Below, one piece after another: positions 38,552-61,205 of a stretch of 64,000 nt of DNA; position 1 is the first letter of the stretch; every line of letters begins with the position of its first letter. Both the position numbers and the translations under genes were made by a program. The stretch comes from Candidatus Magasanikiibacteriota bacterium (GTDB lineage: Bacteria > Patescibacteriota > Patescibacteriia > Magasanikbacterales > UBA922). Below the pieces are notes generated by a model. It was not told the DNA's origin. It searched no databases and worked only from the letters and a program-made list of their open reading frames with translations. The DNA is taken from NCBI GenBank assembly GCA_041665025.1, contig JBAYJP010000002.1:196820-260819 (forward strand). The letters run 5' to 3'.

Positions 38552-39184
38552 TTATTTCCGTCTTTTTTTAATTTCTTTTAATACGTTTTCTAGTTTGATT
38601 CCTTTTTGTACTAGCAACGTGAATAGATGATAAAGTACGTCGACACTTTCTTCAGCAGTTCGTTTTTTAGTTTCTTCTCTAACTGCTCGGCAGACTTCTT
38701 CAGCTTCTTCCATTATCTTTTCTTCAATTTTGGGTAGTCCTTTGGAAAATAGGTAAGTGGTATAGGATTTTTTAGGCATATTTTTTTTGCGATCCTGAAT
38801 CACACTAAATAATTCAGCGATAAAGCCAATGTCAGGTTGGGATTTTTTGTTTATCCCTTTTGGTTGTGGTATGTCAAAACATGATTCAGTAAGAAGATGA
38901 CAGGTCGGTCCTGCCGGTTTTACTTTTACGAGTATAGTGTCTGCGTCACAATCTATTTTGATATCTTTTACAAATAAATAGTTTTTGCTTTCTTCCCCTT
39001 TCATCCAAAGACATTTTTTTGTCCTGCTATAAAACCAGACTTTTTGTGTGTGTATGGTTTTTCTAAATGCATCTTCATTCATAAAACCCAACATAAGAAC
39101 ACGATTTGTGGAGATGTCCTGAATAATAGCTGGCGCAAGCCCACTCATTTTTTTGAAATTAATTTTTTTGAGTATTGTCTTCAT
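38552..39184 (-). CDS. hisIE: Bifunctional phosphoribosyl-AMP cyclohydrolase / phosphoribosyl-ATP pyrophosphatase
   Basis: HisI 'LAPAIIQD...FYSRTKKCLWMKGEES...DCDADTILVKVKPAGPTCHLLTESCF'; HisE-like C-terminus; ATGA overlap with upstream gene. Confidence 0.85.
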   Translation of the reverse strand: MKTILKKINFKKMSGLAPAIIQDISTNRVLMLGFMNEDAFRKTIHTQKVWFYSRTKKCLWMKGEESKNYLFVKDIKIDCDADTILVKVKPAGPTCHLLTESCFDIPQPKGINKKSQPDIGFIAELFSVIQDRKKNMPKKSYTTYLFSKGLPKIEEKIMEEAEEVCRAVREETKKRTAEESVDVLYHLFTLLVQKGIKLENVLKEIKKRRK

Positions 39185-40653
39185 AGCCGTATGGGCAGGT
39201 TATTGTTCTTTAGATATCGTTTCAATTTTTTGATTTTGATTTTTTCATAATGAAAAACCGTTGCTGCCAATACTGCATCTACGTTGGTTTGTTTCAATAC
39301 ATCGAGGAAATCTTTTTTTGTTCCAGCACCGCTCGAAGCAATTACCGGTATACGTACTGACCGAGAAATTTTGTTGAGAAGTTCTATGTCAAATCCTTTT
39401 TTTGTACCGTCTCTATCCAAACTATTCACGAGTAATTCGCCCGCACCTAGTTTTTCCATTTTTTTAGCAAATGTAATTGCATTTATGTCAGTCTTTTGTT
39501 TACCTCCTCGTATATATATCATCCATATTTTCCCAGTTTTTTTTGCATCAATAGAAATTACTAAACATTGCGAGCCGTATTTTTGTGAAATACTTTTTAC
39601 TAATGCTGGATTAAGAACTGCAGCAGTACATAGTGAAACCTTATCTGCTCCAGCGTTTAATAAACATTTTACGTCATTAATATCTGCTATCCCACCCCCA
39701 ACGGTAAAAGGTATGTTTATATTTTTCGCGATTTTTTCTACCAGTTCACGGAGAGTTTTTCTTTTTTCAGATGTCGCCGTTATATCCAAAAATACGAGTT
39801 CATCCGCCCCGCTTTGGCTATACAATTGAGCTAATTTCACTGCATCGCCTGCATCTGTCAGTTTTGTGAAGTGGATGCCTTTGACTACCTTTCCATCTTT
39901 TACATCGAGACAGGGGATTATTCTCTTTGTCAGATTATTTGGAGAAAAAATGGGCAATATTTTTTCTAGGCTTAATTTTCCTTCATACAAAGTTTTTCCC
40001 AAGACTACGCCATAGACTCCAAGTTTCTCCAGTTTTTTTATATCACCAATTGTGGTAATTCCTCCGGCGGCGATTATCTTAAAGCCATATTTCAGTATCT
40101 TTTTTATTAATGGTAAGTTTGGTCCGGTAAGTGTTCCATCTTTTTTAATATCAGTAACTAAAATATAGTTAACGCCGATCTGTTTTAATACATTCAGGAA
40201 CTTGTTCAGGGATACGTTGTTTGTTTTCTGCCATCCTTTGGACATAAGTACATTATTTTTGACATCGACAGCTATAATTATTCTTTCAGTGCCATATTTT
40301 TTTATTAGTTTAGGTATCAGATTATTTTTTTCAATAGCTGAAGTACCAATAATGACTTTGTCTGTACCCGAATCTAGCAGTTGGACTGCATCTTTGTATG
40401 TTCTAATGCCGCCGCCTATTTGGACAGGCAGACCGATTTTTTTTGTCATATTTATTATGAGTTTTTTGTTTACGGGGCGACCCATTTGAGCGCCTTCTAA
40501 ATCAATAATATGGAGGCATGAAGCACCAGCATTTTTGAATTCCATTGCTTTGCTCATAGGATTGCGGGTATATGTTTTAACACAAGAATAGTCGCCTTGT
40601 GTAAGACGAACGCATGTTCCCTTATAAATATCAATCGCAGGAATAATTATCAT
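39181..40653 (-). CDS. hisAF: Fused HisA (ProFAR isomerase) - HisF (IGP synthase cyclase subunit) protein
   Basis: N-half 'MIIIPAIDIYKGTCVRLTQGDY...QIGGGIRT'; C-half 'RIIPCLDVKDGKVVKGIHF...ELVFLDITAT...VGGGIADI'; single uninterrupted 490-aa ORF. Confidence 0.8.
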   Translation of the reverse strand: MIIIPAIDIYKGTCVRLTQGDYSCVKTYTRNPMSKAMEFKNAGASCLHIIDLEGAQMGRPVNKKLIINMTKKIGLPVQIGGGIRTYKDAVQLLDSGTDKVIIGTSAIEKNNLIPKLIKKYGTERIIIAVDVKNNVLMSKGWQKTNNVSLNKFLNVLKQIGVNYILVTDIKKDGTLTGPNLPLIKKILKYGFKIIAAGGITTIGDIKKLEKLGVYGVVLGKTLYEGKLSLEKILPIFSPNNLTKRIIPCLDVKDGKVVKGIHFTKLTDAGDAVKLAQLYSQSGADELVFLDITATSEKRKTLRELVEKIAKNINIPFTVGGGIADINDVKCLLNAGADKVSLCTAAVLNPALVKSISQKYGSQCLVISIDAKKTGKIWMIYIRGGKQKTDINAITFAKKMEKLGAGELLVNSLDRDGTKKGFDIELLNKISRSVRIPVIASSGAGTKKDFLDVLKQTNVDAVLAATVFHYEKIKIKKLKRYLKNNNLPIRL

Positions 40654-41234
40654 AGTACGCAAAAATTATGTAATAACCTCAAACCAGCTTTTCCCGATTT
40701 TTCCGGATGAAATTGGACCGCGTAGAAATTATTTTTTTGTATAATTGAGGGAAAACGTATTCCATAATCAGTTAGTCCAAGAATATCTTGTTCAGGTGAT
40801 TGAAAATAGTATGAATGCACAAAATAAAAATACTCATTATTTTTCAAATCATTTAGTAATGGCGACTTTGTTTTTATTTGTACACTATTCCAGCCTATAT
40901 GCGGAACTTTTAGTCTGCCGGCAAATTTATTTACTTTTCCGGGTATTATTGAGAGACACTCTGTTTCATCTTCCTCAGAATAATCAGCCAATAGCTGCAT
41001 GCCAAGGCAAATACCAAGAAAAGGGACATTGATATTTTTAATAATTGTATTAATGCTTCGTCTTTTCAATTCTCTCATTGCACTTCCGGCTCTGCCCTGT
41101 CCCGGAAAAATTATTTTTTTTGCATTCTTAATTTTGTTAGGGTCAGAAGTTACAGAGCATTCAAACCCAAGATGCCCTATTGCATTTTTTAGAGAGCCAA
41201 TATTGCTGGCATTGTAATCGATAATGGTAATCAT
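40650..41234 (-). CDS. hisH: Imidazole glycerol phosphate synthase, glutamine amidotransferase subunit
   Basis: 'GICLGMQLL', 'HIGWN', 'FYFVHSY'. Confidence 0.9.
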   Translation of the reverse strand: MITIIDYNASNIGSLKNAIGHLGFECSVTSDPNKIKNAKKIIFPGQGRAGSAMRELKRRSINTIIKNINVPFLGICLGMQLLADYSEEDETECLSIIPGKVNKFAGRLKVPHIGWNSVQIKTKSPLLNDLKNNEYFYFVHSYYFQSPEQDILGLTDYGIRFPSIIQKNNFYAVQFHPEKSGKAGLRLLHNFCVL

Positions 41235-41821
41235 AGTGTTCCTTTGGTTGTTGGTAATATATTCTTCATGCGCGGGTCGTTTTCTGCTGCCATTTTAAGA
41301 GTTCGGGCAAAAGCTTTAAAAATAGCCTCTACCATGTGGTGTTCATTGCGTCCGTATTTTATATTGATATGGATATTGGCTTGTAGGTTGTCTGCAACTG
41401 AGCGGAAAAAATCTTCAAACAGTTCAGTAGACATATCACCAATTTTTTCTCGTCTAAATTTAACATTCCAAACCACATAAGATCTTCCACCAATATCAAT
41501 CGCGACCTCGGCTAACGTTTCATCCATAGGCAATAAAAATCCATAACGTTGGATCCCTTTTTTGTTGCCCAGTGCTTTTTTTATGGCCTGTCCTAGACAG
41601 ATTCCAATATCTTCAACTGTGTGGTGTTCATCGACGTCCAAATCTCCTTTGCTGATTATGTTTATGTCGATTAATGACTGCTTTGATAATAATTCAAGCA
41701 TGTGGTCGAAAAAACCAATGCCCGTTTGTATATTATATTTTCCTTTGCCATCCAAATTTACTGATAGGGAGATATCTGTTTCACTTGTCTCCCGTTTTAT
41801 TTTAGATTTTCGTTGTTTCAT
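41231..41821 (-). CDS. hisB: Imidazoleglycerol-phosphate dehydratase
   Basis: 'GIGFFDHMLELLSKQSLIDINI', 'DVDEHHTVEDIGICLGQA'. Confidence 0.9.
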   Translation of the reverse strand: MKQRKSKIKRETSETDISLSVNLDGKGKYNIQTGIGFFDHMLELLSKQSLIDINIISKGDLDVDEHHTVEDIGICLGQAIKKALGNKKGIQRYGFLLPMDETLAEVAIDIGGRSYVVWNVKFRREKIGDMSTELFEDFFRSVADNLQANIHINIKYGRNEHHMVEAIFKAFARTLKMAAENDPRMKNILPTTKGTL

Positions 41822-41826
41822 ATGGG

Positions 41827-42336
41827 TTATAGTTTGAAATTCTCAAGCGTGAACTTCTGGTTCGTCTCTGTCTGTAGGAATCTGAGCCCTAGATTTTTTG
41901 CCAGCAATCTATCACTCTCTCTGTCTCCACAAACAAATGAAAGTTCTTTGTCTACGTCACGATTTCTTAAAAAATTATCAAATAATTTTGTCTTTGGTTT
42001 TCTACAATTGCAATTATCATCGGGCATGTGAGGACATAGAAGTAATGTTTCAAATGATACTCCATTCTGTTTGAATATCTGTACTAGTTGTTTTTGTACC
42101 GTGTCAAAACATTCTTGCGGGTATATGGTTGTGCCGAGTCCGTCCTGGTTGCTTGTCATTATTAATGTATATTGAGTGTCAATAATTTTGTGTAATCCGT
42201 CAATGACGCCGGGAAGAATACGGAGTTTTTTAATGGCATCAATTTGGTAGGGGATATCACCTCGTTTTGTTTCCTTAGGCGTTGGTTCGTAAATCAATGT
42301 TCCATCGCGATCTATGAATGCATATTTAGTTTTCAT
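41827..42336 (-). CDS. hisN: Histidinol-phosphatase, HAD-IIIA (HisB-N type)
   Basis: 'YAFIDRDGTLI', 'CNCRKPK' as in E. coli HisB N-domain. Confidence 0.75.
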   Translation of the reverse strand: MKTKYAFIDRDGTLIYEPTPKETKRGDIPYQIDAIKKLRILPGVIDGLHKIIDTQYTLIMTSNQDGLGTTIYPQECFDTVQKQLVQIFKQNGVSFETLLLCPHMPDDNCNCRKPKTKLFDNFLRNRDVDKELSFVCGDRESDRLLAKNLGLRFLQTETNQKFTLENFKL

Positions 42337-42346
42337 ACCACTGATT

Positions 42347-43411
42347 TTACTGATTAATTAGACTTTTGTACGTTTCAATAAATTGTTTAGTCTGACCCAC
42401 GGTGCCCATGGAAACTCTCACTGTATTATCAAACCCATATCCCTTGCGTGGGCGGATAAGAAATCCTCGTTCTCTTAGGTTGTTAAATATCTGAGCAGGA
42501 TTTTTTGGTCTAAACAATATAAAATGTGCTGAGCTCGGGTAAAACATTACCCCGTTTTCTCTAAAGAATTGTTCAAGCATTGGTTTGGATACTTTCATAA
42601 CTTGCTGTATGTAGATTTTTAGTGGTTGTAGGTTTTGTAATACTGCTCTTGCCGTATATAACCCAGCCATATTTATGTCATATGGTCCTCGTACCTTCGC
42701 CATCTCCCTAATCAATAGTACTGGCGCAATTACATAGCCAATACGCAGTGCAGCGAGTCCAAATGCTTTGGAAAATGTCCTGGTAATAACCAAATTTGGA
42801 TATTTTTCTATAAGAGGGATGGCGGTTATTCCGGAATATTCTGCATAAGCTTCGTCCACGTATACCAAGCCATTTTTCAATTTTTTTAATATACGTTCAA
42901 TATCATCCGGGGACACTTGTGTGCCTGTTGGGTTATTTGGGTTACAGACCACGACAAGTTTTGTTTTATCTGTTATGGCATTTAGCACATCTTGAAGCGG
43001 GAATGAACCATTGTCCGTATTATACGTTGGAGTTATGATCTTGTTTCCACATAGCTCGGCGCATTGATAGAACATAGCAAAACTTGGTGAAGGTATGATG
43101 ACTTCGTCGCCTGGTTTGGTGAATGTTTTAAATATAATATCTATACCTTGATCAGAGCCATTGATTATCATAATATTTTTTGGTCGCGTACTTGCATATT
43201 GGGCAATTCGTTCGTTTATGTCCCCATATTCCGGATAGCGTTGGAATACATTTTCTTGCGTAAGTTTTTCAAGAGCCTTTTTTACTACATCACCATAAGG
43301 TGTTGTCCGTTCATTGAAATCCAATAAACAACCATCAAAATAACGCCTGCCTTCAATTGGCGGATTATATGGATTCATAACTTGTATGTTTTGGTTTGCC
43401 AAGTTTTTCAT
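42347..43411 (-). CDS. hisC: Histidinol-phosphate aminotransferase
   Basis: Class II aminotransferase, 'TRTFSKAFGLAALRIGY' PLP-Lys region, operon context. Confidence 0.85.
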   Translation of the reverse strand: MKNLANQNIQVMNPYNPPIEGRRYFDGCLLDFNERTTPYGDVVKKALEKLTQENVFQRYPEYGDINERIAQYASTRPKNIMIINGSDQGIDIIFKTFTKPGDEVIIPSPSFAMFYQCAELCGNKIITPTYNTDNGSFPLQDVLNAITDKTKLVVVCNPNNPTGTQVSPDDIERILKKLKNGLVYVDEAYAEYSGITAIPLIEKYPNLVITRTFSKAFGLAALRIGYVIAPVLLIREMAKVRGPYDINMAGLYTARAVLQNLQPLKIYIQQVMKVSKPMLEQFFRENGVMFYPSSAHFILFRPKNPAQIFNNLRERGFLIRPRKGYGFDNTVRVSMGTVGQTKQFIETYKSLINQ

Positions 43412-44547
43412 ATTTGTTTCAAGAACCTTGTTTCAATACTATCTGCATGGGCATTGAGTCCTTCGGCCCGTGCAATTGTAGTAATAGTATTTTTTATCTT
43501 TTTTAATCCTTGTTTAGTTACTCTCTGTACTTCTATTTTTTTGCCAAAGTCTTCCACACTTAAAGCTCCATATGTTTTTGACCATCCGGCAGTTGGCAAT
43601 GTATGATTTGGTCCCGTGACATAGTCGCCAGCTGAGACTGGAGAATAATTTCCCAAAAATATTGATCCAGCATTTATTATTTTTGATAATATGTGTTTTT
43701 CATTTTTTGCCATAATTTCTAAGTGTTCGGGCGCAATCTCATTGACCAGTTTTATCGCTTCAGTCATGTTTGGAACTAATTTAACTTTTCCAATTTTTAT
43801 TTTTTGTGCAAGTTTTTTATCCCACGTAATGAGAATTGCAACAGAATCGGGCCCATGCTCCAGTTGAGATGCTAGATCTTTTTCAATAAATTTAGGGTTT
43901 GCAGTTTCATCGGCAAGGATAGCAATCTCTGACGGACCTGCAGGCATATCAATCGCAACCGTGTTGCTTACTTGTATTTTTGCCTCAGTCACATACTTGT
44001 TTCCTGGTCCAAAAATTTTGTAAACCTGCGGAATAGTTTTTGTTCCAAAAGCCATCGCTGCAATAGCCTGTGCTCCCCCGACTTGGTATATATTTTTTAT
44101 TCCGACTATATCAGCTGCCACAAGTGTTACTGCGGCAATGGGCGGAGGAGAACACATAATAATATCGCTGCAGCCGGCAAGCTTTGCAGGGATGCCGAGC
44201 ATTAAGACCGTTGAAGGATATTTTGCTCGTCCCCCCGGGATGTATAATCCGACTTTTTCTATTGGTCTAAATTCACGCCAGCAGGTAATCCCCGGACTTG
44301 TTTGGATTGGACGTTCGCGAACAGATAAGATATTTTTATTGAATTTAGTAATATTTTTTATGGCTACTTTAAGTGATCTCATTATTTCAGTATCAACTTT
44401 TTTGTATGCATCTTGAATTTGTGTTTGAGAAATTTTAAGAGTATCAATTTTTGCATTATTAAATTTGAGCGCATATTCTTCTAATGCCGTGTCACCATTT
44501 TTTTTGACGTTTTCAATTATCTGTTTGACGGTCTCTTGTGTTGTCAT
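43408..44547 (-). CDS. hisD: Histidinol dehydrogenase
   Basis: 'GGAQAIAAMAFGT', 'ILADETANP', 'DYVTGPNHTLPT' motifs. Confidence 0.85.
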   Translation of the reverse strand: MTTQETVKQIIENVKKNGDTALEEYALKFNNAKIDTLKISQTQIQDAYKKVDTEIMRSLKVAIKNITKFNKNILSVRERPIQTSPGITCWREFRPIEKVGLYIPGGRAKYPSTVLMLGIPAKLAGCSDIIMCSPPPIAAVTLVAADIVGIKNIYQVGGAQAIAAMAFGTKTIPQVYKIFGPGNKYVTEAKIQVSNTVAIDMPAGPSEIAILADETANPKFIEKDLASQLEHGPDSVAILITWDKKLAQKIKIGKVKLVPNMTEAIKLVNEIAPEHLEIMAKNEKHILSKIINAGSIFLGNYSPVSAGDYVTGPNHTLPTAGWSKTYGALSVEDFGKKIEVQRVTKQGLKKIKNTITTIARAEGLNAHADSIETRFLKQI

Positions 44548-45160
44548 ATTTTTTTATTAATTCTAGGAATTCTTTCTTTTTTTCATTTGCATAGGGGCTT
44601 TCTATGAGTATGGCTTGGGAATCCATAACTTTGTCTATGATAATAAGTCCATTATCTCTAAGAGTTTTGCCGGTCTGGGTTATATCACATACCGCATCGG
44701 CCATACCAAGGGACGGAGCTATTTCCACTGATCCGGAGAGTTCTACTATGTTGGCATAAATGCCTTGTTGTTTTAGAAACCTTTTAAAGATATTAGGGTA
44801 GGATGTTGCAATAGTTTTATTTTGTAATTGTCGTACCGATGTTATATCACTGTTTTGTGGTACCGCGATTACCAATGTACAGTCGCTGAATGTAAGATTT
44901 TTTGAAATGCACGTGGTTTCCGCCCGTTCTTCCAGAACATCTCTTCCAATAATTCCAAAATCAACTAGATTTTTGTTGATATATGTCGGAATATCATCAT
45001 CACGCAGAAAGATTATTTGATTTCCTGTCTTGCGACATGTGGTAGATAGTTTTTTATCTTCCATATCAAAATCAAAACCAAGGTTTCTAAGAAATAATAA
45101 GCTTTCATCACGCAGATGACCTTTTTTCTGTATAGCAATTTTTAGATTTTGTTGTTGCAT
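44513..45160 (-). CDS. hisG: ATP phosphoribosyltransferase, short form (HisGS)
   Basis: 215 aa, 'LKIAIQKKGHL', 'DFGIIGRDVLEE', lacks C-terminal regulatory domain. Confidence 0.8.
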   Translation of the reverse strand: MQQQNLKIAIQKKGHLRDESLLFLRNLGFDFDMEDKKLSTTCRKTGNQIIFLRDDDIPTYINKNLVDFGIIGRDVLEERAETTCISKNLTFSDCTLVIAVPQNSDITSVRQLQNKTIATSYPNIFKRFLKQQGIYANIVELSGSVEIAPSLGMADAVCDITQTGKTLRDNGLIIIDKVMDSQAILIESPYANEKKKEFLELIKKYDNTRDRQTDN

Positions 45161-45164
45161 ATGA

Positions 45165-45581
45165 TTATGTGATCATGCAAGAAATTGAATAAATATTTTG
45201 TCCCTTCTTTTGAATTTTTGTGATTGTAAATGTGCCAATCTCCTTTGTATTTTTTACGTGCGGGCCTGCACACGCCAATCTATTGAATCCTTCAATTTCA
45301 TATATAGATATGTTTGATACAGATTCGGGAATTAGGCTTACATCTGCTATTTTTTCAGCCCCAATTCTGGGCAGAATATAATTGATTACGTTATACCCTT
45401 TTTCTATCTCTGCATTTACTTCATCTTGAAGTTTTTGTGCTAAGTTACGGATATCAGTTATACATTCATAGACAACTCGGAACGAACCTTTTTTAAATTC
45501 CAGTGCCTTGCTTGTTATTTCATATTGATTTTTAAGTACGGTGTAGAGAATATGCTCGGCAGTATGAAGACGTGATTTCAT
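45165..45581 (-). CDS. AlaX-S-like tRNA-editing domain protein (aaRS second additional domain)
   Basis: 'HTAEHIL' and 'CAGPHV' zinc motifs. Confidence 0.6.
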   Translation of the reverse strand: MKSRLHTAEHILYTVLKNQYEITSKALEFKKGSFRVVYECITDIRNLAQKLQDEVNAEIEKGYNVINYILPRIGAEKIADVSLIPESVSNISIYEIEGFNRLACAGPHVKNTKEIGTFTITKIQKKGQNIYSISCMIT

Positions 45582-45610
45582 AAGATAAGATTAGGAGAAA
45601 TCTCCATGGG

Positions 45611-45683
45611 GGTGCCCAATGGGAGTTGAACCCATATTCTCAGTACCACAAACTGATGTGCTGGCCGTTGCACCATGAGCACC
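45611..45683 (-). tRNA. tRNA-His (anticodon GTG) with encoded G-1
   Basis: Manual fold: G-1 + GTGCTCA acceptor (one G-U), D-stem GTGC/GCAC, anticodon stem TCAGT/ACTGA loop TTGTGGT, T-arm ATGGG-TTCAACT-CCCAT, discriminator C. Confidence 0.75.
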
Positions 45684-45710
45684 GCCATAGAGATTTCTAG
45701 TAGAATAAAC

Positions 45711-45736
45711 AAAAAATCGCCTATTATAGCGATTTT
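45711..45736. terminator. Bidirectional intrinsic terminator (aaaaaatcgc-ctattata-gcgatttt)
   Basis: 6-bp stem with A/T tracts both sides. Confidence 0.55.
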
Positions 45737-45908
45737 GACCTCAAAGTAAAACTACCCGTGGTAGATTACCCGAGGTCGTTTGTATGGTGTGATATGTTGT
45801 AAGAATTAGTTAGGTTCATAGTGTTATAATGTATTAATACAATAATACATTTATATAATTTTGTCAAATAGGGAATGTGGATAAAAAATGACCATTTTAA
45901 TCATCTGT

Positions 45909-46190
45909 CTATTTTTCATTTTTCAAGGCCTTTCTGTAGCCGCCTTCCCCATGATTCAACCAATGCGCGATCCGTGTGACTGTGGTCGTACTCAAGCCTG
46001 TATTCCGGGCTATATCTCTATAGGGTACACCTTTGTCTATCATGTGTACTGCTTCCCAGCGCCGTGACATTTCTTCGAGTTCTTCAAGTGTACAAAGGTC
46101 GCGCAAAAAATTAAGCATATCATCTTCTTTTTTCAGAGAAAGAAATGCTTTGGCTAATTTTTTAAGTTGTGAATTTTTCCAGTTTTTCAT
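45909..46190 (-). CDS. TrpR-like YerC/YecD family DNA-binding protein
   Basis: 93 aa, 'RDIARNTGLSTTTVTRIAHWL' HTH. Confidence 0.6.
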   Translation of the reverse strand: MKNWKNSQLKKLAKAFLSLKKEDDMLNFLRDLCTLEELEEMSRRWEAVHMIDKGVPYRDIARNTGLSTTTVTRIAHWLNHGEGGYRKALKNEK

Positions 46191-57746: not shown

Positions 57747-60700
57747 ATGCCAACATACAAACGTCAACCGTTAAAAACTCTTGAGAGAAAGTTTTTTACC
57801 GAGAATCGTGATGCCATAGATGCACCGGATTTGATTGAGGTGCAAAAATCTTCGTATGAATGGTTTTTCAAAGATGGACTTCGTGAATTGTTTGATGAAT
57901 TATCTCCTATCACCGACTTTACCGGACGCGATTTGGAATTATATTTTGAAGATTATTATTTGGATGAGCCAAAGTTTGATGAGATTACGTGCCGTAATAA
58001 AAATACCACATTTGAAGCGCCACTCCGCGTGAATGTGCGTCTTGCAAATAAGAGGACTAATAAACAAGAAAAACAAGAAATTTATTTGGGTGATGTTCCT
58101 GTCATGACACAGCGCGGTACATTTGTCGTCAATGGTATTGAGCGTGTGGTCGTGTCTCAGCTCATTCGCAGCGCGGGAGCATTCTTTACGGCAGAGGTCA
58201 TTCGCGGACGCAGATATTATGGAGCAAAAATAATTCCAAACCGCGGAGCATGGATAGAAATTGAAACTGACCAGAATAATGTGATGTGGATCAAAGTAGA
58301 TCGTAAACGTAAAGTAGCAGCTACGTCTCTTTTGCGTGCGTTTGGTTATTCAGACGGTGAGTCTATTACCAAACTTTTCAAAGATGTAAACAACCACCCC
58401 AATATTGATTTTATTGATGCAACACTCAAAAAAGATATTGCGCAAAATGAAGAAGAAGGTTTGATTGAAGTGTATCGCAGAATTCGTCCAGGGGATTTGG
58501 CTACGACAGACAACGCACGCAGTTTGATCCATGCCATGTTTTTCAATTTCGATCGTTATGATTTGGGTAAGGTTGGTGTGTACAAATTTAATACTAAATT
58601 TGATTTAGGACTTTCTGAAGAAAAATTTGATGACAAACAAGAACGCGTATTGTCTCCAGAAAAATTGGTTCAAGTATTGCGCGAAGTAGTGCGTCTCAAT
58701 GTGACTCAAGAAGAGCCAGATGACATTGACCATTTGGGAAATCGCCGCGTACGCGGGGTTGGTGAACTCGTACAAAATCGTTTCCGCATCGGTCTTGCGC
58801 GCATGGAACGCATTATCAAAGATCGCATGAGCACCATGGATATTGATACCATTGCCCCAAATAAACTTATCAACGCACGCCCCGTTATTTCGGTCATGCG
58901 CGAGTTTTTCATGAGTTCTCAGCTTTCACAGTTCATGGATCAGGTAAATCCATTGGCAGAACTCGAACATAAACGCCGTATTAGTGCCTTAGGACCTGGC
59001 GGTTTATCACGTGATAGAGCAGGGTTTGAAGTCCGTGATGTGCATCGTACACACTATGGACGCATTTGTCCTATTGCTACTCCAGAAGGACCAAACATCG
59101 GTCTTGTTGGCCACTTATCTTCTTTTTCAAAAATAAATCGTTTTGGATTTTTGGAAACTCCATATCGCAAAGTTTTGCATGAAGTTGCAAATGAATCTCG
59201 CTTTACTGATGGCGAGGTTTCAGATGATGATGTTAAGGGAATTGTGAAAAAAGGGGAAACCATTACAAAAGAAATTGCAAAAAAACTCGAACAAGAAAAA
59301 AAGATTACCCATGTAAAAATCAAGCCTCATGTTACGAGCGAAATTGTGTATCTCAACTCATTTCAAGAAGAAAAAACAGTCACCGCAAGCGCCACGACAC
59401 GCATGGATGAACAGGGGCATTTTTTGGATGAGCGTACGCCAGCTCGTGTGCATGGCGAAGCTCAGGTCACTGAAGCAGAAACTATCCAGTATCTTGACGT
59501 TGCATCAAATCAAATTTTGTCGCTTGCAACCAGCCTTATTCCATTTTTGGAACATGATGATGCGACGCGCGCACTCATGGGTACAAACATGCAACGGCAA
59601 TCAGTACCATGCATCAAGCCAGAACCTCCACTCGTCGGTACTGGTGTTGAACGCACCGCTGCTGAACATAGTGGGTATGTATTCAAAGCTCCTGCAGACG
59701 GAGAGGTCACGTATGTTGATGGAGAACGGATTGAAATTACTGACAAGAAAGGAATGAATCATAAATTCCAGATTAATAAATTTGTACGTTCAAATGCATC
59801 GAGCTGTATCAACCAACGTCCGGTGGTTACTGTTAATCAAAAAGTGAAAAAGGGAGACCGTTTGACTGATGGACCAAGTATCAAAGACGGCGAACTTGCA
59901 CTCGGACAAAATGTATTTGTTGCGTACATGGTATGGGATGGTTTCAACTACGAAGACGCGGTAATTATTTCAGACCGGCTTGTACGTAGAGACAACTTTA
60001 CTTCCATTCATATTGAAGATTATACCACTGATGTCCGCGAGACGAAGCTTGGACCAGAAGTAGTGACTTGCGATATCCCAAATGTGAGTGAAGAAAAATT
60101 ACGCAATCTTGATGCAGAAGGTATTGTGCGTATTGGCGCCGAAGTTCATTCAGGCGATATTTTGGTAGGAAAAATTACACCAAAAGGTGAAACCGAATTA
60201 ACGCCAGAAGAACGATTGTTGCGCGCGATATTTGGTGAAAAAGCTCGCGATGTGCGCGATTCTTCACTTTACCTTGAACACGGTGAGCAGGGGAAAGTCA
60301 TTGATGTAAAAATATTTTCTGCAGAAGAAGGAGATAAACTTCAACCAGGTGTTATCAAACAAGTGCAAGTAACGGTTGCTGACCTTCGTAAAATTCAAGT
60401 TGGTGACAAAATGGCAGGACGCCATGGAAATAAAGGTGTTATTTCACGCGTAGTGCCTGCTGGCGATATGCCATTTTTGGAAGATGGAACTCCTGTTGAC
60501 ATTATTTTGTCTCCACTGGGTGTTGTTTCTCGTATGAACTTGGGTCAGTTGCTTGAAACCCATCTCGGGCTTGCGGCAAATGCCCTTGGTTACAAAGCAG
60601 CAACACCAGTCTTGAATGGTATTACTGAAGATCAAATTACTGAAGAATTGGTAAAAGCAGGATTCCCGGTGGATGGCAAATTGCAATTGTTTGATGGCAG

Positions 60701-61205
60701 AACCGGAGAACCATATGACCACAAGACAACAGTAGGGTACAACTACATGCTCAAACTCAATCACATGGTTGAAGATAAAATCCATCAACGCTCCATTGGT
60801 CCTTATTCGCTTATTACCCAACAACCTTTGGGAGGTAAAGCGCAGTTTGGAGGACAGCGTTTTGGAGAAATGGAAGTATGGGCTTTGCAAGCATATGGCG
60901 CCGCGCATACGTTGCAAGAAATTTTGACGATTAAATCAGACGACGTGCCAGGCCGTGCAAAAGCATATGAAGCTATTATCAAGGGTGAATTGATAACCAA
61001 AATCAATCTTCCAGAATCATTTAATGTGTTGGTTCGTGAAATGAAAGGACTTTGCCTTGACGTAGAATTATTGAAGCACATGGAAGATGGAACATACACG
61101 CATGTCGAAGAAATGAAAGCTCATGTGAGCGATGCACGCCCAGGTGATTATGGTACTGCGACAGAAAATGGAGAGCGACCAAAAAAAGTTGAACGTGTTG
61201 AGTAA
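57747..61205 (+). CDS. rpoB: DNA-directed RNA polymerase subunit beta
   Basis: 1152 aa; 'NMQRQ', 'GDKMAGRHGNKGV', 'RFGEMEVWALQAYGAAHTLQE'. Confidence 0.98.
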   Translation: MPTYKRQPLKTLERKFFTENRDAIDAPDLIEVQKSSYEWFFKDGLRELFDELSPITDFTGRDLELYFEDYYLDEPKFDEITCRNKNTTFEAPLRVNVRLANKRTNKQEKQEIYLGDVPVMTQRGTFVVNGIERVVVSQLIRSAGAFFTAEVIRGRRYYGAKIIPNRGAWIEIETDQNNVMWIKVDRKRKVAATSLLRAFGYSDGESITKLFKDVNNHPNIDFIDATLKKDIAQNEEEGLIEVYRRIRPGDLATTDNARSLIHAMFFNFDRYDLGKVGVYKFNTKFDLGLSEEKFDDKQERVLSPEKLVQVLREVVRLNVTQEEPDDIDHLGNRRVRGVGELVQNRFRIGLARMERIIKDRMSTMDIDTIAPNKLINARPVISVMREFFMSSQLSQFMDQVNPLAELEHKRRISALGPGGLSRDRAGFEVRDVHRTHYGRICPIATPEGPNIGLVGHLSSFSKINRFGFLETPYRKVLHEVANESRFTDGEVSDDDVKGIVKKGETITKEIAKKLEQEKKITHVKIKPHVTSEIVYLNSFQEEKTVTASATTRMDEQGHFLDERTPARVHGEAQVTEAETIQYLDVASNQILSLATSLIPFLEHDDATRALMGTNMQRQSVPCIKPEPPLVGTGVERTAAEHSGYVFKAPADGEVTYVDGERIEITDKKGMNHKFQINKFVRSNASSCINQRPVVTVNQKVKKGDRLTDGPSIKDGELALGQNVFVAYMVWDGFNYEDAVIISDRLVRRDNFTSIHIEDYTTDVRETKLGPEVVTCDIPNVSEEKLRNLDAEGIVRIGAEVHSGDILVGKITPKGETELTPEERLLRAIFGEKARDVRDSSLYLEHGEQGKVIDVKIFSAEEGDKLQPGVIKQVQVTVADLRKIQVGDKMAGRHGNKGVISRVVPAGDMPFLEDGTPVDIILSPLGVVSRMNLGQLLETHLGLAANALGYKAATPVLNGITEDQITEELVKAGFPVDGKLQLFDGRTGEPYDHKTTVGYNYMLKLNHMVEDKIHQRSIGPYSLITQQPLGGKAQFGGQRFGEMEVWALQAYGAAHTLQEILTIKSDDVPGRAKAYEAIIKGELITKINLPESFNVLVREMKGLCLDVELLKHMEDGTYTHVEEMKAHVSDARPGDYGTATENGERPKKVERVE

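What the first reader, a model, noticed from the sequence alone, without database searches (positions are those of the whole stretch)
39181..40653. HisA-HisF fusion protein
A single uninterrupted ORF encodes a complete HisA (MIIIPAIDIYKG...QIGGGIRT...) followed directly by a complete HisF (RIIPCLDVKDGKVVKG...VGGGIADI...). The two (beta/alpha)8 barrels are ancient paralogs that are normally separate polypeptides. Common his fusions are hisIE, hisNB and HisH-HisF (HIS7), so an A-F fusion is rare. It is relevant to barrel evolution and substrate channelling of PRFAR between the two active sites.
Basis: seen in the sequence. Interest (0 to 1): 0.5.

Follow-up and report, generated by a model that had tools for sequence, protein, structure and literature searches.

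The report
Natural HisA–HisF fused histidine enzyme
A candidate-phyla-radiation bacterium (Candidatus Magasanikbacteria) really does encode two consecutive histidine-pathway enzymes, HisA and HisF, as one 490-residue protein; this fusion is inherited across a whole clade of such bacteria yet is missing from published lists of histidine gene fusions, and whether it does more than keep the two enzymes together in equal amounts is untested.

Summary
On the minus strand, 39181-40653 is one stop-free ORF of 490 aa. It holds a complete HisA barrel (res 1-232), an 8-residue linker and a complete HisF barrel (res 241-490). All catalytic, phosphate-binding and ammonia-gate residues are conserved. It lies in a compact operon, hisG-D-C-N-B-H-[AF]-IE, and is joined to hisH and hisIE by ATGA overlaps.

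It is not an artefact. More than 120 homologues are fused in the same way. Codon alignment of four organisms from four sequencing runs shows an in-frame junction with synonymous changes across it.

The fusion is uncommon overall: 2 of 80 sampled species with adjacent hisA-hisF, and at least 26 of about 15,000 family representatives. It is nevertheless the rule in one old CPR clade (Magasanik-, Nealson-, Peregrinibacteria). It also arose independently elsewhere (for example in Prevotella) and extends to H-A-F, A-F-IE and H-A-F-I-E proteins.

The halves are only 25% identical, so this is a secondary fusion of diverged paralogues, not a relic of barrel evolution. The best reading is a tethered bifunctional ProFAR isomerase/IGP-synthase cyclase that pairs with HisH. 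Substrate channelling is possible but unshown. UniProt auto-labels a homologue "Multifunctional fusion protein". I found no paper describing the fusion. Interest is moderate.

The parts
39181..40653 (-). hisAF coding sequence (490 aa plus stop), one uninterrupted frame
39958..40653 (-). HisA (ProFAR isomerase) barrel, residues 1-232. Catalytic D8 and D130, plus R16, W141, T167-D168 and the phosphate-binding glycines G80-G82 and G197-G198, are invariant or nearly invariant in 76 fused homologues.
39934..39957 (-). Linker, residues 233-240 (LPIFSPNN). It varies in sequence and length across the clade (5-17 residues counted between query positions 228 and 241, with modes at 6 and 12-13), has lower pLDDT, and has no stop or ATG/GTG start. 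L241 is a CTG codon.
39184..39933 (-). HisF (IGP synthase cyclase subunit) barrel, residues 241-490. D250 and D369 correspond to T. maritima D11 and D130. Ammonia-gate residues R244, E285, K338 and E406 correspond to R5, E46, K99 and E167. D337 corresponds to D98. All are invariant.
40650..41234 (-). hisH glutaminase partner. Its TGA stop overlaps the hisAF ATG (ATGA). It contains GICLGMQ (nucleophile Cys) and HPE.
38552..39184 (-). hisIE (itself a fusion). Its ATG overlaps the hisAF stop (ATGA).
41231..41821 (-). hisB (IGP dehydratase), separate from hisN here
41827..42336 (-). hisN (HAD-type histidinol phosphatase), stand-alone here
42347..43411 (-). hisC
43408..44547 (-). hisD
44513..45160 (-). 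hisG (short form, 215 aa)
45909..46190 (-). YerC/YecD-family TrpR-like protein, conserved at the head of the operon in relatives. Candidate HisR repressor.

Best explanation
This is a genuine bifunctional enzyme. One chain carries a catalytically complete HisA barrel (ProFAR to PRFAR, step 4 of histidine biosynthesis), joined by a short flexible tether to a catalytically complete HisF barrel (PRFAR plus ammonia to IGP plus AICAR, step 5). The HisF half still recruits the separately encoded glutaminase HisH through its conserved docking and ammonia-gate face. It arose when adjacent, translationally coupled hisA and hisF genes in a very compact operon lost the boundary between them. That happened once, early in a CPR lineage where it has been inherited and kept under purifying selection, and again independently in other bacteria.

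Shown: the fusion is real; both halves are intact and conserved; it sits in a complete his operon; it is clade-wide; it has several origins.

Inferred: both activities, and pairing with HisH. The selective value is most likely fixed 1:1 stoichiometry, co-translation and co-localisation of two consecutive enzymes, possibly with mutual stabilisation, rather than a sealed substrate tunnel. In a (beta/alpha)8 barrel both chain termini lie on the face opposite the active site. A tether of 5-13 residues therefore joins the two 'bottom' rims next to the HisH docking site and leaves the two catalytic faces apart.
For: There is a single ORF with two full-length domains above curated cut-offs. Residue-level alignment to T. 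maritima HisF, plus conservation of the catalytic Asp pairs, phosphate sites and the R5/E46/K99/E167 gate in 76 fused homologues, supports intact chemistry. AlphaFold gives two confident barrels (pLDDT 91.5), and the HisF half superposes on 1GPW/6RTZ at TM 0.96. The window holds no other HisA/HisF paralogue. The his operon is complete, with curated-model hits for G, D, C, N, B, H and IE and ATGA overlaps on both sides of hisAF. HisH has its catalytic motifs. The top 120 homologues are all about 484-491 aa at 97-100% coverage. The codon alignment across the junction in four organisms is in frame with synonymous substitutions, and both halves show many synonymous against non-synonymous differences. 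Within the clade the HisA halves diverge to 32% and the HisF halves to 52% identity while the fusion persists. An NJ tree of HisF domains gives one all-fused clade of 42/42 sampled sequences including the query, plus about 20 scattered fused singletons. The HisF half of the Prevotella fusion is 85% identical to a stand-alone HisF. The same operon with the same fusion occurs in Peregrinibacteria and other CPR contigs. The window's RpoB places the organism in Candidatus Magasanikbacteria.
Against: No enzymology, expression data or reads were available. The relative orientation of the two barrels is not resolved (pTM 0.57, no PAE or coordinates), so the argument against a tunnel rests on general barrel topology and not on this protein. 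NCBI carries a 250-aa 'HisF' (MFA6427326.1) identical to residues 242-490 with Met in place of L241. I could not retrieve that record's DNA, so I cannot exclude that that assembly differs upstream. The NJ tree is crude (BLOSUM distances, no support values). Some scattered singleton fusions could be metagenome frameshift errors.
Confidence: 0.85

Rival explanations
1. The fusion is an adaptive 'mini-metabolon'. Covalent linkage, together with bound HisH, channels the labile intermediate PRFAR from the HisA site to the HisF site, or couples HisA occupancy allosterically to glutaminase activation, giving a kinetic advantage beyond stoichiometry.
For: The two domains catalyse consecutive steps. 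The fusion has been kept across deep divergence and re-invented several times. Larger fusions in the same gene order exist: H-A-F, A-F-IE and H-A-F-I-E. The shortest linkers are only 5-6 residues, which forces close apposition. A hisBHAF metabolon has long been proposed but never confirmed (PMC10138114).
Against: The linker is variable in sequence and length and has lower confidence, as expected of a passive tether. No confident inter-domain interface is predicted (pTM 0.57). Both termini lie on the non-catalytic face of each barrel (established barrel topology). From memory, the comparable two-barrel fusion TrpC-TrpF of E. coli shows no channelling. Fusion of adjacent overlapping genes is expected to recur neutrally in compact genomes.
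Confidence: 0.2
2. Sequencing or assembly artefact: two genes were falsely joined by an indel or a lost stop at the junction.
For: The junction DNA contains A6 and T6 runs. The two assemblies that carry the exact protein are the same population. NCBI lists a HisF-only product of 250 aa for the identical sequence.
Against: More than 120 independent clusters from many samples and pipelines are fused in the same way. Four organisms at 63-83% identity keep the frame, with the linker peptide conserved and synonymous changes within it. Several other members were seen on multiple contigs, for example P0059 on 12. There is no ATG/GTG start and no stop anywhere near the junction.
Confidence: 0.02
3. 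The long ORF exists, but a free HisF is also (or mainly) made from an internal start near codon 241, as the NCBI annotation implies.
For: NCBI protein MFA6427326.1 starts exactly at codon 241. CTG is a permitted though rare start codon in table 11.
Against: Ribosomes starting at the hisA ATG would still read through, so the fusion would be made anyway. Codon 241 is CTG or TTG in relatives with no conserved ATG. The nearest Shine-Dalgarno-like AGGA lies about 30-45 nt upstream of codon 241 in the junction codons (my reading), too far for a ribosome-binding site. NCBI annotates other members at full length, 491 aa. The start coincides with the N-terminus of the HisF model, which suggests a homology-guided start call.
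Confidence: 0.05
4. One half is a degenerate or repurposed domain (for example a regulatory PRFAR-binding module, a PriA-like dual isomerase, or a WbuZ/HisF2-type glycan-amidation cyclase), so the protein is not a simple HisA plus HisF.
For: The whole-protein score for WbuZ (TIGR03572, 374 bits) exceeds that model's cut-off. HisA halves evolve faster than HisF halves.
Against: The HisF model scores higher (427 bits). The WbuZ score is inflated because both barrels contribute to it. The PriA model is below its cut-off (232 against 306). All catalytic residues of both halves are conserved. The gene occupies the hisA-hisF slot of a complete his operon, and the window holds no alternative hisA or hisF.
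Confidence: 0.04

Closest known systems
Stand-alone bacterial HisA (EC 5.3.1.16) and HisF (cyclase subunit of IGP synthase), e.g. T. maritima HisA/HisF and S. enterica HisA
   Same: Same folds, same catalytic and ligand-binding residues and same operon position. The HisF half is about 52% identical to T. maritima HisF with TM 0.96. The HisA half matches S. enterica HisA at E=1e-44.
   Different: Here the two are one polypeptide joined by about 8 residues. In 78 of 80 sampled species with adjacent genes they are separate.
Eukaryotic HIS7 / bacterial HisH-HisF fusions (yeast 1JVN)
   Same: A fusion involving HisF with an extension at the HisF N-terminus, which sits at the glutaminase docking face. 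This shows that such N-terminal extensions are tolerated (1jvn matched).
   Different: The partner fused to HisF is the glutaminase, not the preceding pathway enzyme. HIS7 joins two subunits of one enzyme, whereas A-F joins two consecutive enzymes.
Published catalogue of his gene fusions: hisIE, hisNB, hisHF, hisIED (Fani et al. 2007, PMC1963479; Del Duca et al. 2023, PMC10138114)
   Same: The same evolutionary process: fusion of neighbouring his genes in compact operons, with independent origins and inheritance within clades.
   Different: hisA is not among the seven genes listed as having undergone fusion. In those papers 'hisA/hisF fusion' refers to the ancient internal half-barrel elongation, not to a head-to-tail HisA-HisF protein. 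A 2024 archaeal survey mentions 'HisA/F fusions with HisIE' in four assemblies only (PMC11237513).
E. coli TrpC(F): bifunctional IGPS-PRAI, two (beta/alpha)8 barrels for consecutive steps on one chain (from memory, not tested here)
   Same: Two TIM barrels catalysing adjacent pathway steps, covalently joined by a short linker.
   Different: A different pathway and non-paralogous chemistry. For TrpCF the literature as I recall it reports no channelling; that is used here only as an analogy.
Engineered HisAF chimeras (half-barrel swaps, Sterner/Höcker laboratories; from memory)
   Same: They combine HisA and HisF sequence in one chain.
   Different: Those are single barrels built from one half of each protein. 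The natural protein here has two complete barrels.

Membership tests
HisA, ProFAR isomerase (NCBIfam TIGR00007) | Full-length match above the curated equivalog cut-off | tested here: met
   378.8 bits against a cut-off of 228.95, residues 3-231 covering profile positions 1-230 of 231. The whole-protein score includes a contribution from the paralogous second barrel. My clade-specific HisA HMM gives 336 bits for the first domain alone.
HisA, ProFAR isomerase | Catalytic Asp pair at the ends of beta1 and beta5, and two phosphate-binding glycine motifs | tested here: met
   D8, D130, G80-G82 and G197-G198, plus R16, W141 and T167-D168, are invariant or at least 90% conserved in 76 fused homologues.
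HisA, ProFAR isomerase | Isomerase activity on ProFAR | not testable with these tools
   Needs an enzyme assay or delta-hisA complementation.
HisF, IGP synthase cyclase subunit (NCBIfam TIGR00735) | Full-length match above the curated cut-off, and the (beta/alpha)8 fold | tested here: met
   426.7 bits against a cut-off of 294.55, residues 241-489 covering profile positions 2-254 of 254. TM 0.96 and rmsd 1.2-1.3 Å to 1GPW_A/6RTZ_A.
HisF, IGP synthase cyclase subunit | Catalytic D11/D130 and ammonia-gate R5/E46/K99/E167 (T. maritima numbering) | tested here: met
   D250, D369, R244, E285, K338 and E406 are all invariant, with numbering transferred through the alignment.
HisF, IGP synthase cyclase subunit | A cognate HisH glutaminase is present | tested here: met
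   The adjacent hisH matches TIGR01855 at 223.6 bits against a cut-off of 105.4. The Cys and His-x-Glu motifs align to solved HisH structures. Physical binding was not tested.
PriA (bifunctional HisA/TrpF, TIGR01919) | Score above the equivalog cut-off | tested here: not met
   231.8 bits against a cut-off of 306.45.
WbuZ / HisF2 glycan-amidation cyclases (TIGR03572, NF038364) | Best-scoring model and a polysaccharide-locus context | tested here: not met
   WbuZ scores 374 bits and AglZ/HisF2 309 bits (the latter below its cut-off of 310), both lower than HisF at 427 bits. The context is a complete his operon.
Catalogued his fusions (hisIE, hisNB, hisHF/HIS7, hisIED/HIS4) | The domain pair matches one of the described fusions | tested here: not met
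   The architecture is HisA+HisF. It is not listed in PMC1963479 or PMC10138114.
Conserved CPR HisA-HisF fusion clade (defined here) | Falls inside the all-fused clade, and has the same operon slot H-[AF]-IE | tested here: met
   The query nests in the 42/42 fused clade. The same gene order is seen in L083-L089.

The most novel reading that the evidence does not exclude
The clade-wide HisA-HisF protein, and its H-A-F and H-A-F-I-E extensions, is 'Rosetta-stone' evidence that HisA, HisF and HisH physically associate in all histidine-making organisms. In the fused form PRFAR would be handed directly, or with allosteric cross-talk to the glutaminase, between the two paralogous barrels. That would make the long-postulated but unconfirmed hisBHAF metabolon directly testable with a natural single-chain construct.
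Probability: 0.2. Interest if true: 0.6.

Novelty: new variant of a known kind. Interest (0 to 1): 0.35.

Why it matters
HisA and HisF are the textbook pair for TIM-barrel evolution and for allosteric ammonia channelling, and his gene fusions have been catalogued for decades. A natural, clade-wide, head-to-tail HisA-HisF protein is missing from that catalogue. It matters for three reasons.

(1) It provides a natural single-chain reagent to test whether consecutive his enzymes associate or channel PRFAR, which is the unconfirmed 'metabolon' idea.

(2) It shows that fusion of adjacent overlapping genes recurs, up to a five-domain H-A-F-I-E protein. That is relevant to how streamlined genomes compact their pathways.

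(3) It exposes an annotation trap. These proteins are named just 'HisF', and in one NCBI record only the HisF half is annotated. Automated pathway reconstruction would then score hisA as missing in CPR genomes, which are already assumed to lack amino-acid biosynthesis.

It does not bear on the ancient origin of the barrels.

Tried and rejected
- The AFDB50 fold search, intended to list UniProt two-barrel relatives, was not available on the machine.
- The single genome-contig scan returned mostly loci with adjacent but separate hisA and hisF, because tblastn joins the two genes. 'Residues 1-490 matched' therefore could not be read as fusion, and I re-tested every locus for a stop-free frame.
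- Looking up the NCBI 250-aa HisF (P0272) to read its upstream DNA failed because it is not on record.
- A regular-expression measure of linker length (YEG...RIIPC) was noisy, so I replaced it with alignment columns.
- Literature searches for HisAF, hisA-hisF and 'fused hisA' returned noise, engineered chimeras or gene-pair mentions, and no description of the natural fusion. The library holds only open-access papers and bioRxiv preprints, so absence there is not proof.
- The Firmicutes HisR operator consensus is not enriched in the window (4 matches against 5 expected, none near the operon).
- I rejected the idea that the fusion is a relic of the ancestral tandem duplication: the halves are 25% identical, each is closest to modern orthologues, and the fusion has several origins.
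- I considered predicting an H-A-F fusion to read out HisH docking.
Full report
**1. Observation.** The feature is real and lies on the minus strand. The ORF listing gives one ORF at 39181-40662 (493 aa from a TTG). The ATG at 40653 gives the 490-aa protein MIIIPAIDIYKG...NNNLPIRL. Pfam finds two His_biosynth domains. NCBIfam assigns residues 3-231 to HisA (TIGR00007, 378.8 bits, cut-off 229) and residues 241-489 to HisF (TIGR00735, 426.7 bits, cut-off 294.6). The other two frames of the gene contain 54 and 34 stops.

The hisAF ATG overlaps the hisH stop as ATGA, and the hisAF stop overlaps the hisIE ATG in the same way. All three genes are therefore translationally coupled.

**2. Not an artefact.** The exact protein is called on a 440-kb ENA contig, which is the source of the window, and in a Logan assembly of SRR6484324. 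The two are identical in DNA, so this is the same population put together by two assemblers.

The stronger evidence is comparative:
- The best 120 hits in the 5.8-billion-protein collection are nearly all 470-502 aa and cover 97-100% of the query (three longer ones carry extra domains). They come from NCBI, JGI, ENA, MGnify and Logan.
- I fetched the DNA of the three closest homologues (83, 68 and 63% identity, from ERR7850084, SRR22387796 and ERZ27247358). Their codon alignment through residues 222-251 has no indel and no stop, and it has synonymous changes inside the linker (CCC/CCT, AAT/AAC, ACA/ACC, TCT/TCG).
- Against the 83% homologue, the HisA half shows 62 synonymous and 50 non-synonymous codon differences, and the HisF half shows 44 and 31.

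The junction is therefore translated and under purifying selection.

**3. Both halves look functional.** Alignment to T. maritima HisF transfers the standard numbering. D11/D130 become D250/D369. The ammonia gate R5/E46/K99/E167 becomes R244/E285/K338/E406. D98 becomes D337. All of these are invariant in an alignment of 76 fused proteins (A1).

In the HisA half, D8 and D130, R16, W141, T167-D168 and the glycine-rich phosphate sites G80-G82 and G197-G198 are invariant or at least 90% conserved.

AlphaFold2 on A1 gives two confident (beta/alpha)8 barrels (mean pLDDT 91.5). A dip occurs at residues 231-240, and pTM is only 0.57, so the relative orientation of the barrels is not determined. The HisF half superposes on solved HisF structures at TM 0.96. 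No PDB chain, by sequence or by fold, spans both barrels. The window holds no other HisA/HisF paralogue. PriA is excluded by score, and WbuZ/HisF2 by lower score and by context.

**4. Context.** The gene is in a complete histidine operon on the minus strand: hisG (44513-45160), hisD, hisC, hisN, hisB, hisH, hisAF and hisIE (38552-39184). Each has curated-model support. A YerC/YecD-family TrpR-like gene lies upstream. HisH has its nucleophile Cys and His-x-Glu motifs.

The neighbours are core chromosomal genes: class II RNR, FtsH, ThrRS, FtsK and RpoB. RpoB is 100% identical to an NCBI MAG named Candidatus Magasanikbacteria, and the next 119 hits at 77-85% are Magasanikbacteria, Parcubacteria or Patescibacteria. 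That places the organism in the Patescibacteria/CPR group.

**5. Distribution and origin.**
- Of 80 GTDB species loci with adjacent hisA and hisF, only two have a stop-free frame across both: a Candidatus Peribacteria MAG and a Prevotella MAG.
- An exhaustive HMMER search of 1.84 billion 50%-identity representatives found 14,941 family members at E<=1e-10. Among the top 150, 26 carry both domains in one chain. This is a lower bound.
- Named members of the query's clade are Magasanikbacteria, Nealsonbacteria, 'Patescibacteria group' and Peregrinibacteria/Peribacteria.
- In an NJ tree of HisF domains, the query sits in one all-fused clade (42 of 42 sampled). About 20 other fused proteins are scattered among stand-alone HisF sequences.
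- The Prevotella protein's HisF half is 85% identical to a non-A-F HisF, and its HisA half is closest to a Prevotellaceae HisA. It is therefore an independent event.
- Inside the main clade the HisA halves diverge to 32% identity and the HisF halves to 52%, while the fusion and the operon order persist.
- The two halves of the query are only 25% identical to each other.

Together these results indicate a secondary fusion of already diverged paralogues. It is ancient in CPR and recurrent elsewhere. It is not a remnant of the primordial duplication.

**6. Wider fusion landscape.** The same searches revealed H-A-F (707, 784 and 665 aa), A-F-IE (687 and 773 aa), H-A-F-I-E (933 aa) and F-A-I (626 aa) proteins. 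They also revealed H-F, F-IE, F-methyltransferase and F-HAD proteins. All of those that contain A-F follow the operon order, which fits repeated loss of gene boundaries in compact, overlapping operons.

**7. Mechanism.** What is shown is a tethered pair of intact enzymes for consecutive steps, encoded next to the glutaminase partner.

The linker is short and variable in sequence. Counted between query positions 228 and 241 it is 5-17 residues long, with modes at 6 and 12-13. It has the lowest confidence in the model.

From established barrel topology, both termini of a (beta/alpha)8 barrel lie on the face opposite the catalytic face, and HisH docks on that same face of HisF (1GPW). The tether therefore connects the two 'bottom' rims beside the HisH site, as the HisH-HisF connector does in yeast HIS7 (1JVN).

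This geometry favours a side-by-side arrangement with separated catalytic faces. I conclude that the most likely benefits are 1:1 stoichiometry, co-localisation and perhaps stability. True channelling of PRFAR is a minority hypothesis (about 0.2). This step is inference and was not tested.

**8. Comparison with what is known.** The Fani-group surveys list hisIE, hisNB, hisHF and hisIED. They name seven fusing genes (D, N, B, H, F, I, E), and hisA is not among them. Their 'hisA/hisF fusion' means the ancient internal elongation.

An archaeal survey notes 'HisA/F fusions with HisIE' in four assemblies. Targeted searches found no description of the head-to-tail protein.

Databases do hold it. UniRef labels a Nealsonbacteria member 'Multifunctional fusion protein'. 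NCBI names full-length members simply 'HisF'. For the window's own organism NCBI lists only a 250-aa HisF that starts at codon 241, a CTG. The 2023 review states that the hisBHAF metabolon is still unconfirmed.

**9. Verdict.** The finding is real and correctly interpreted. It is an undescribed but database-visible architecture of two very well-known enzymes, so I class it as a new variant of a known kind. It would interest specialists in HisA/HisF and in CPR metabolism, but it is not a great surprise given how often adjacent his genes fuse. Interest 0.35.

Noticed in passing
window 39184-39933 (-), against NCBI MFA6427326.1: NCBI holds a 250-aa 'HisF' from a Candidatus Magasanikbacteria MAG that equals residues 242-490 of this protein, with Met at L241 (a CTG codon). 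If the DNA is identical, the in-frame HisA half is unannotated there and hisA would look absent in pathway reconstructions. Other clade members are annotated at full length but named only 'HisF'.
   Followed up: partly
window 41827-42336 (hisN), 41231-41821 (hisB), 42347-43411 (hisC); loci L083, L084, L085, L086, L089: hisN varies between relatives. It is stand-alone in the window, 5 nt from hisB and 10 nt from hisC. It is fused to hisB (343-351 aa) in L083, L084 and L089. It is fused to hisC (510 aa, aminotransferase plus phosphatase) in L085 and L086. A hisC-hisN fusion is also absent from the published catalogue.
   Followed up: partly
window 45607-45683 (tRNA-His, -) and 45165-45581 (138-aa ORF, -): Between the TrpR-like gene and hisG, relatives carry a HisRS-like gene of 429-459 aa that overlaps hisG (a hisZ-like position). 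The window instead has a tRNA-His(GTG) gene and a small AlaX-like tRNA_SAD editing-domain protein (82 bits to AlaXM, below its cut-off). L089 has neither. How the short-form HisG (215 aa) is regulated here is unclear.
   Followed up: partly
window 45830-45849; L089 3295-3314: A perfect palindrome TGTATTA-N6-TAATACA lies between the YerC/YecD-family TrpR-like gene (45909-46190) and the operon. The pattern gives 3 hits with up to 1 mismatch against 0.25 expected. The same motif sits in the equivalent spot of a 63%-identity relative. It resembles the proteobacterial HisR/TrpR half-site quoted in PMC9413887. It is a candidate HisR operator, which would extend HisR regulation to CPR.
   Followed up: partly
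proteins P0121, P0139, P0095, P0082, P0141, P0138, P0147, P0203, P0171: Public metagenomes contain larger or different fusions around HisF: HisH-HisA-HisF, HisA-HisF-HisIE, a 933-aa HisH-HisA-HisF-HisI-HisE, a reversed HisF-HisA-HisI, HisF-methyltransferase and HisF-HAD hydrolase. Some may be gene-calling or frameshift artefacts; none was verified at DNA level.
   Followed up: partly
L027 6555-8036 (Prevotella sp. MAG SUG565): A 493-aa hisA-hisF ORF lies between hisH and hisIE in a Prevotella MAG. Its halves are closest to Bacteroidota stand-alone genes (HisF half 85% identical to a protein without a HisA domain). This is either an independent recent fusion or a MAG frameshift error. P0125 may be a second Bacteroidota example.
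   Followed up: partly
window 38552-46190 as a whole; RpoB at 57747-61205: A complete, regulated, 10-activity histidine operon sits among core genes of a Magasanikbacteria (CPR) chromosome, although CPR are generally described as unable to make amino acids. RpoB has more than 100 relatives at 77-85% identity, but HisAF has only three above 62%. That suggests the operon is patchy within the phylum or was exchanged among CPR lineages.
   Followed up: no
window 44513-44547: hisG and hisD overlap by 35 nt as mechanically called, whereas most other junctions in the operon are 4-nt ATGA overlaps. HisD here is 379 aa against 393-434 aa in relatives. The true hisD start may lie further downstream.
   Followed up: no
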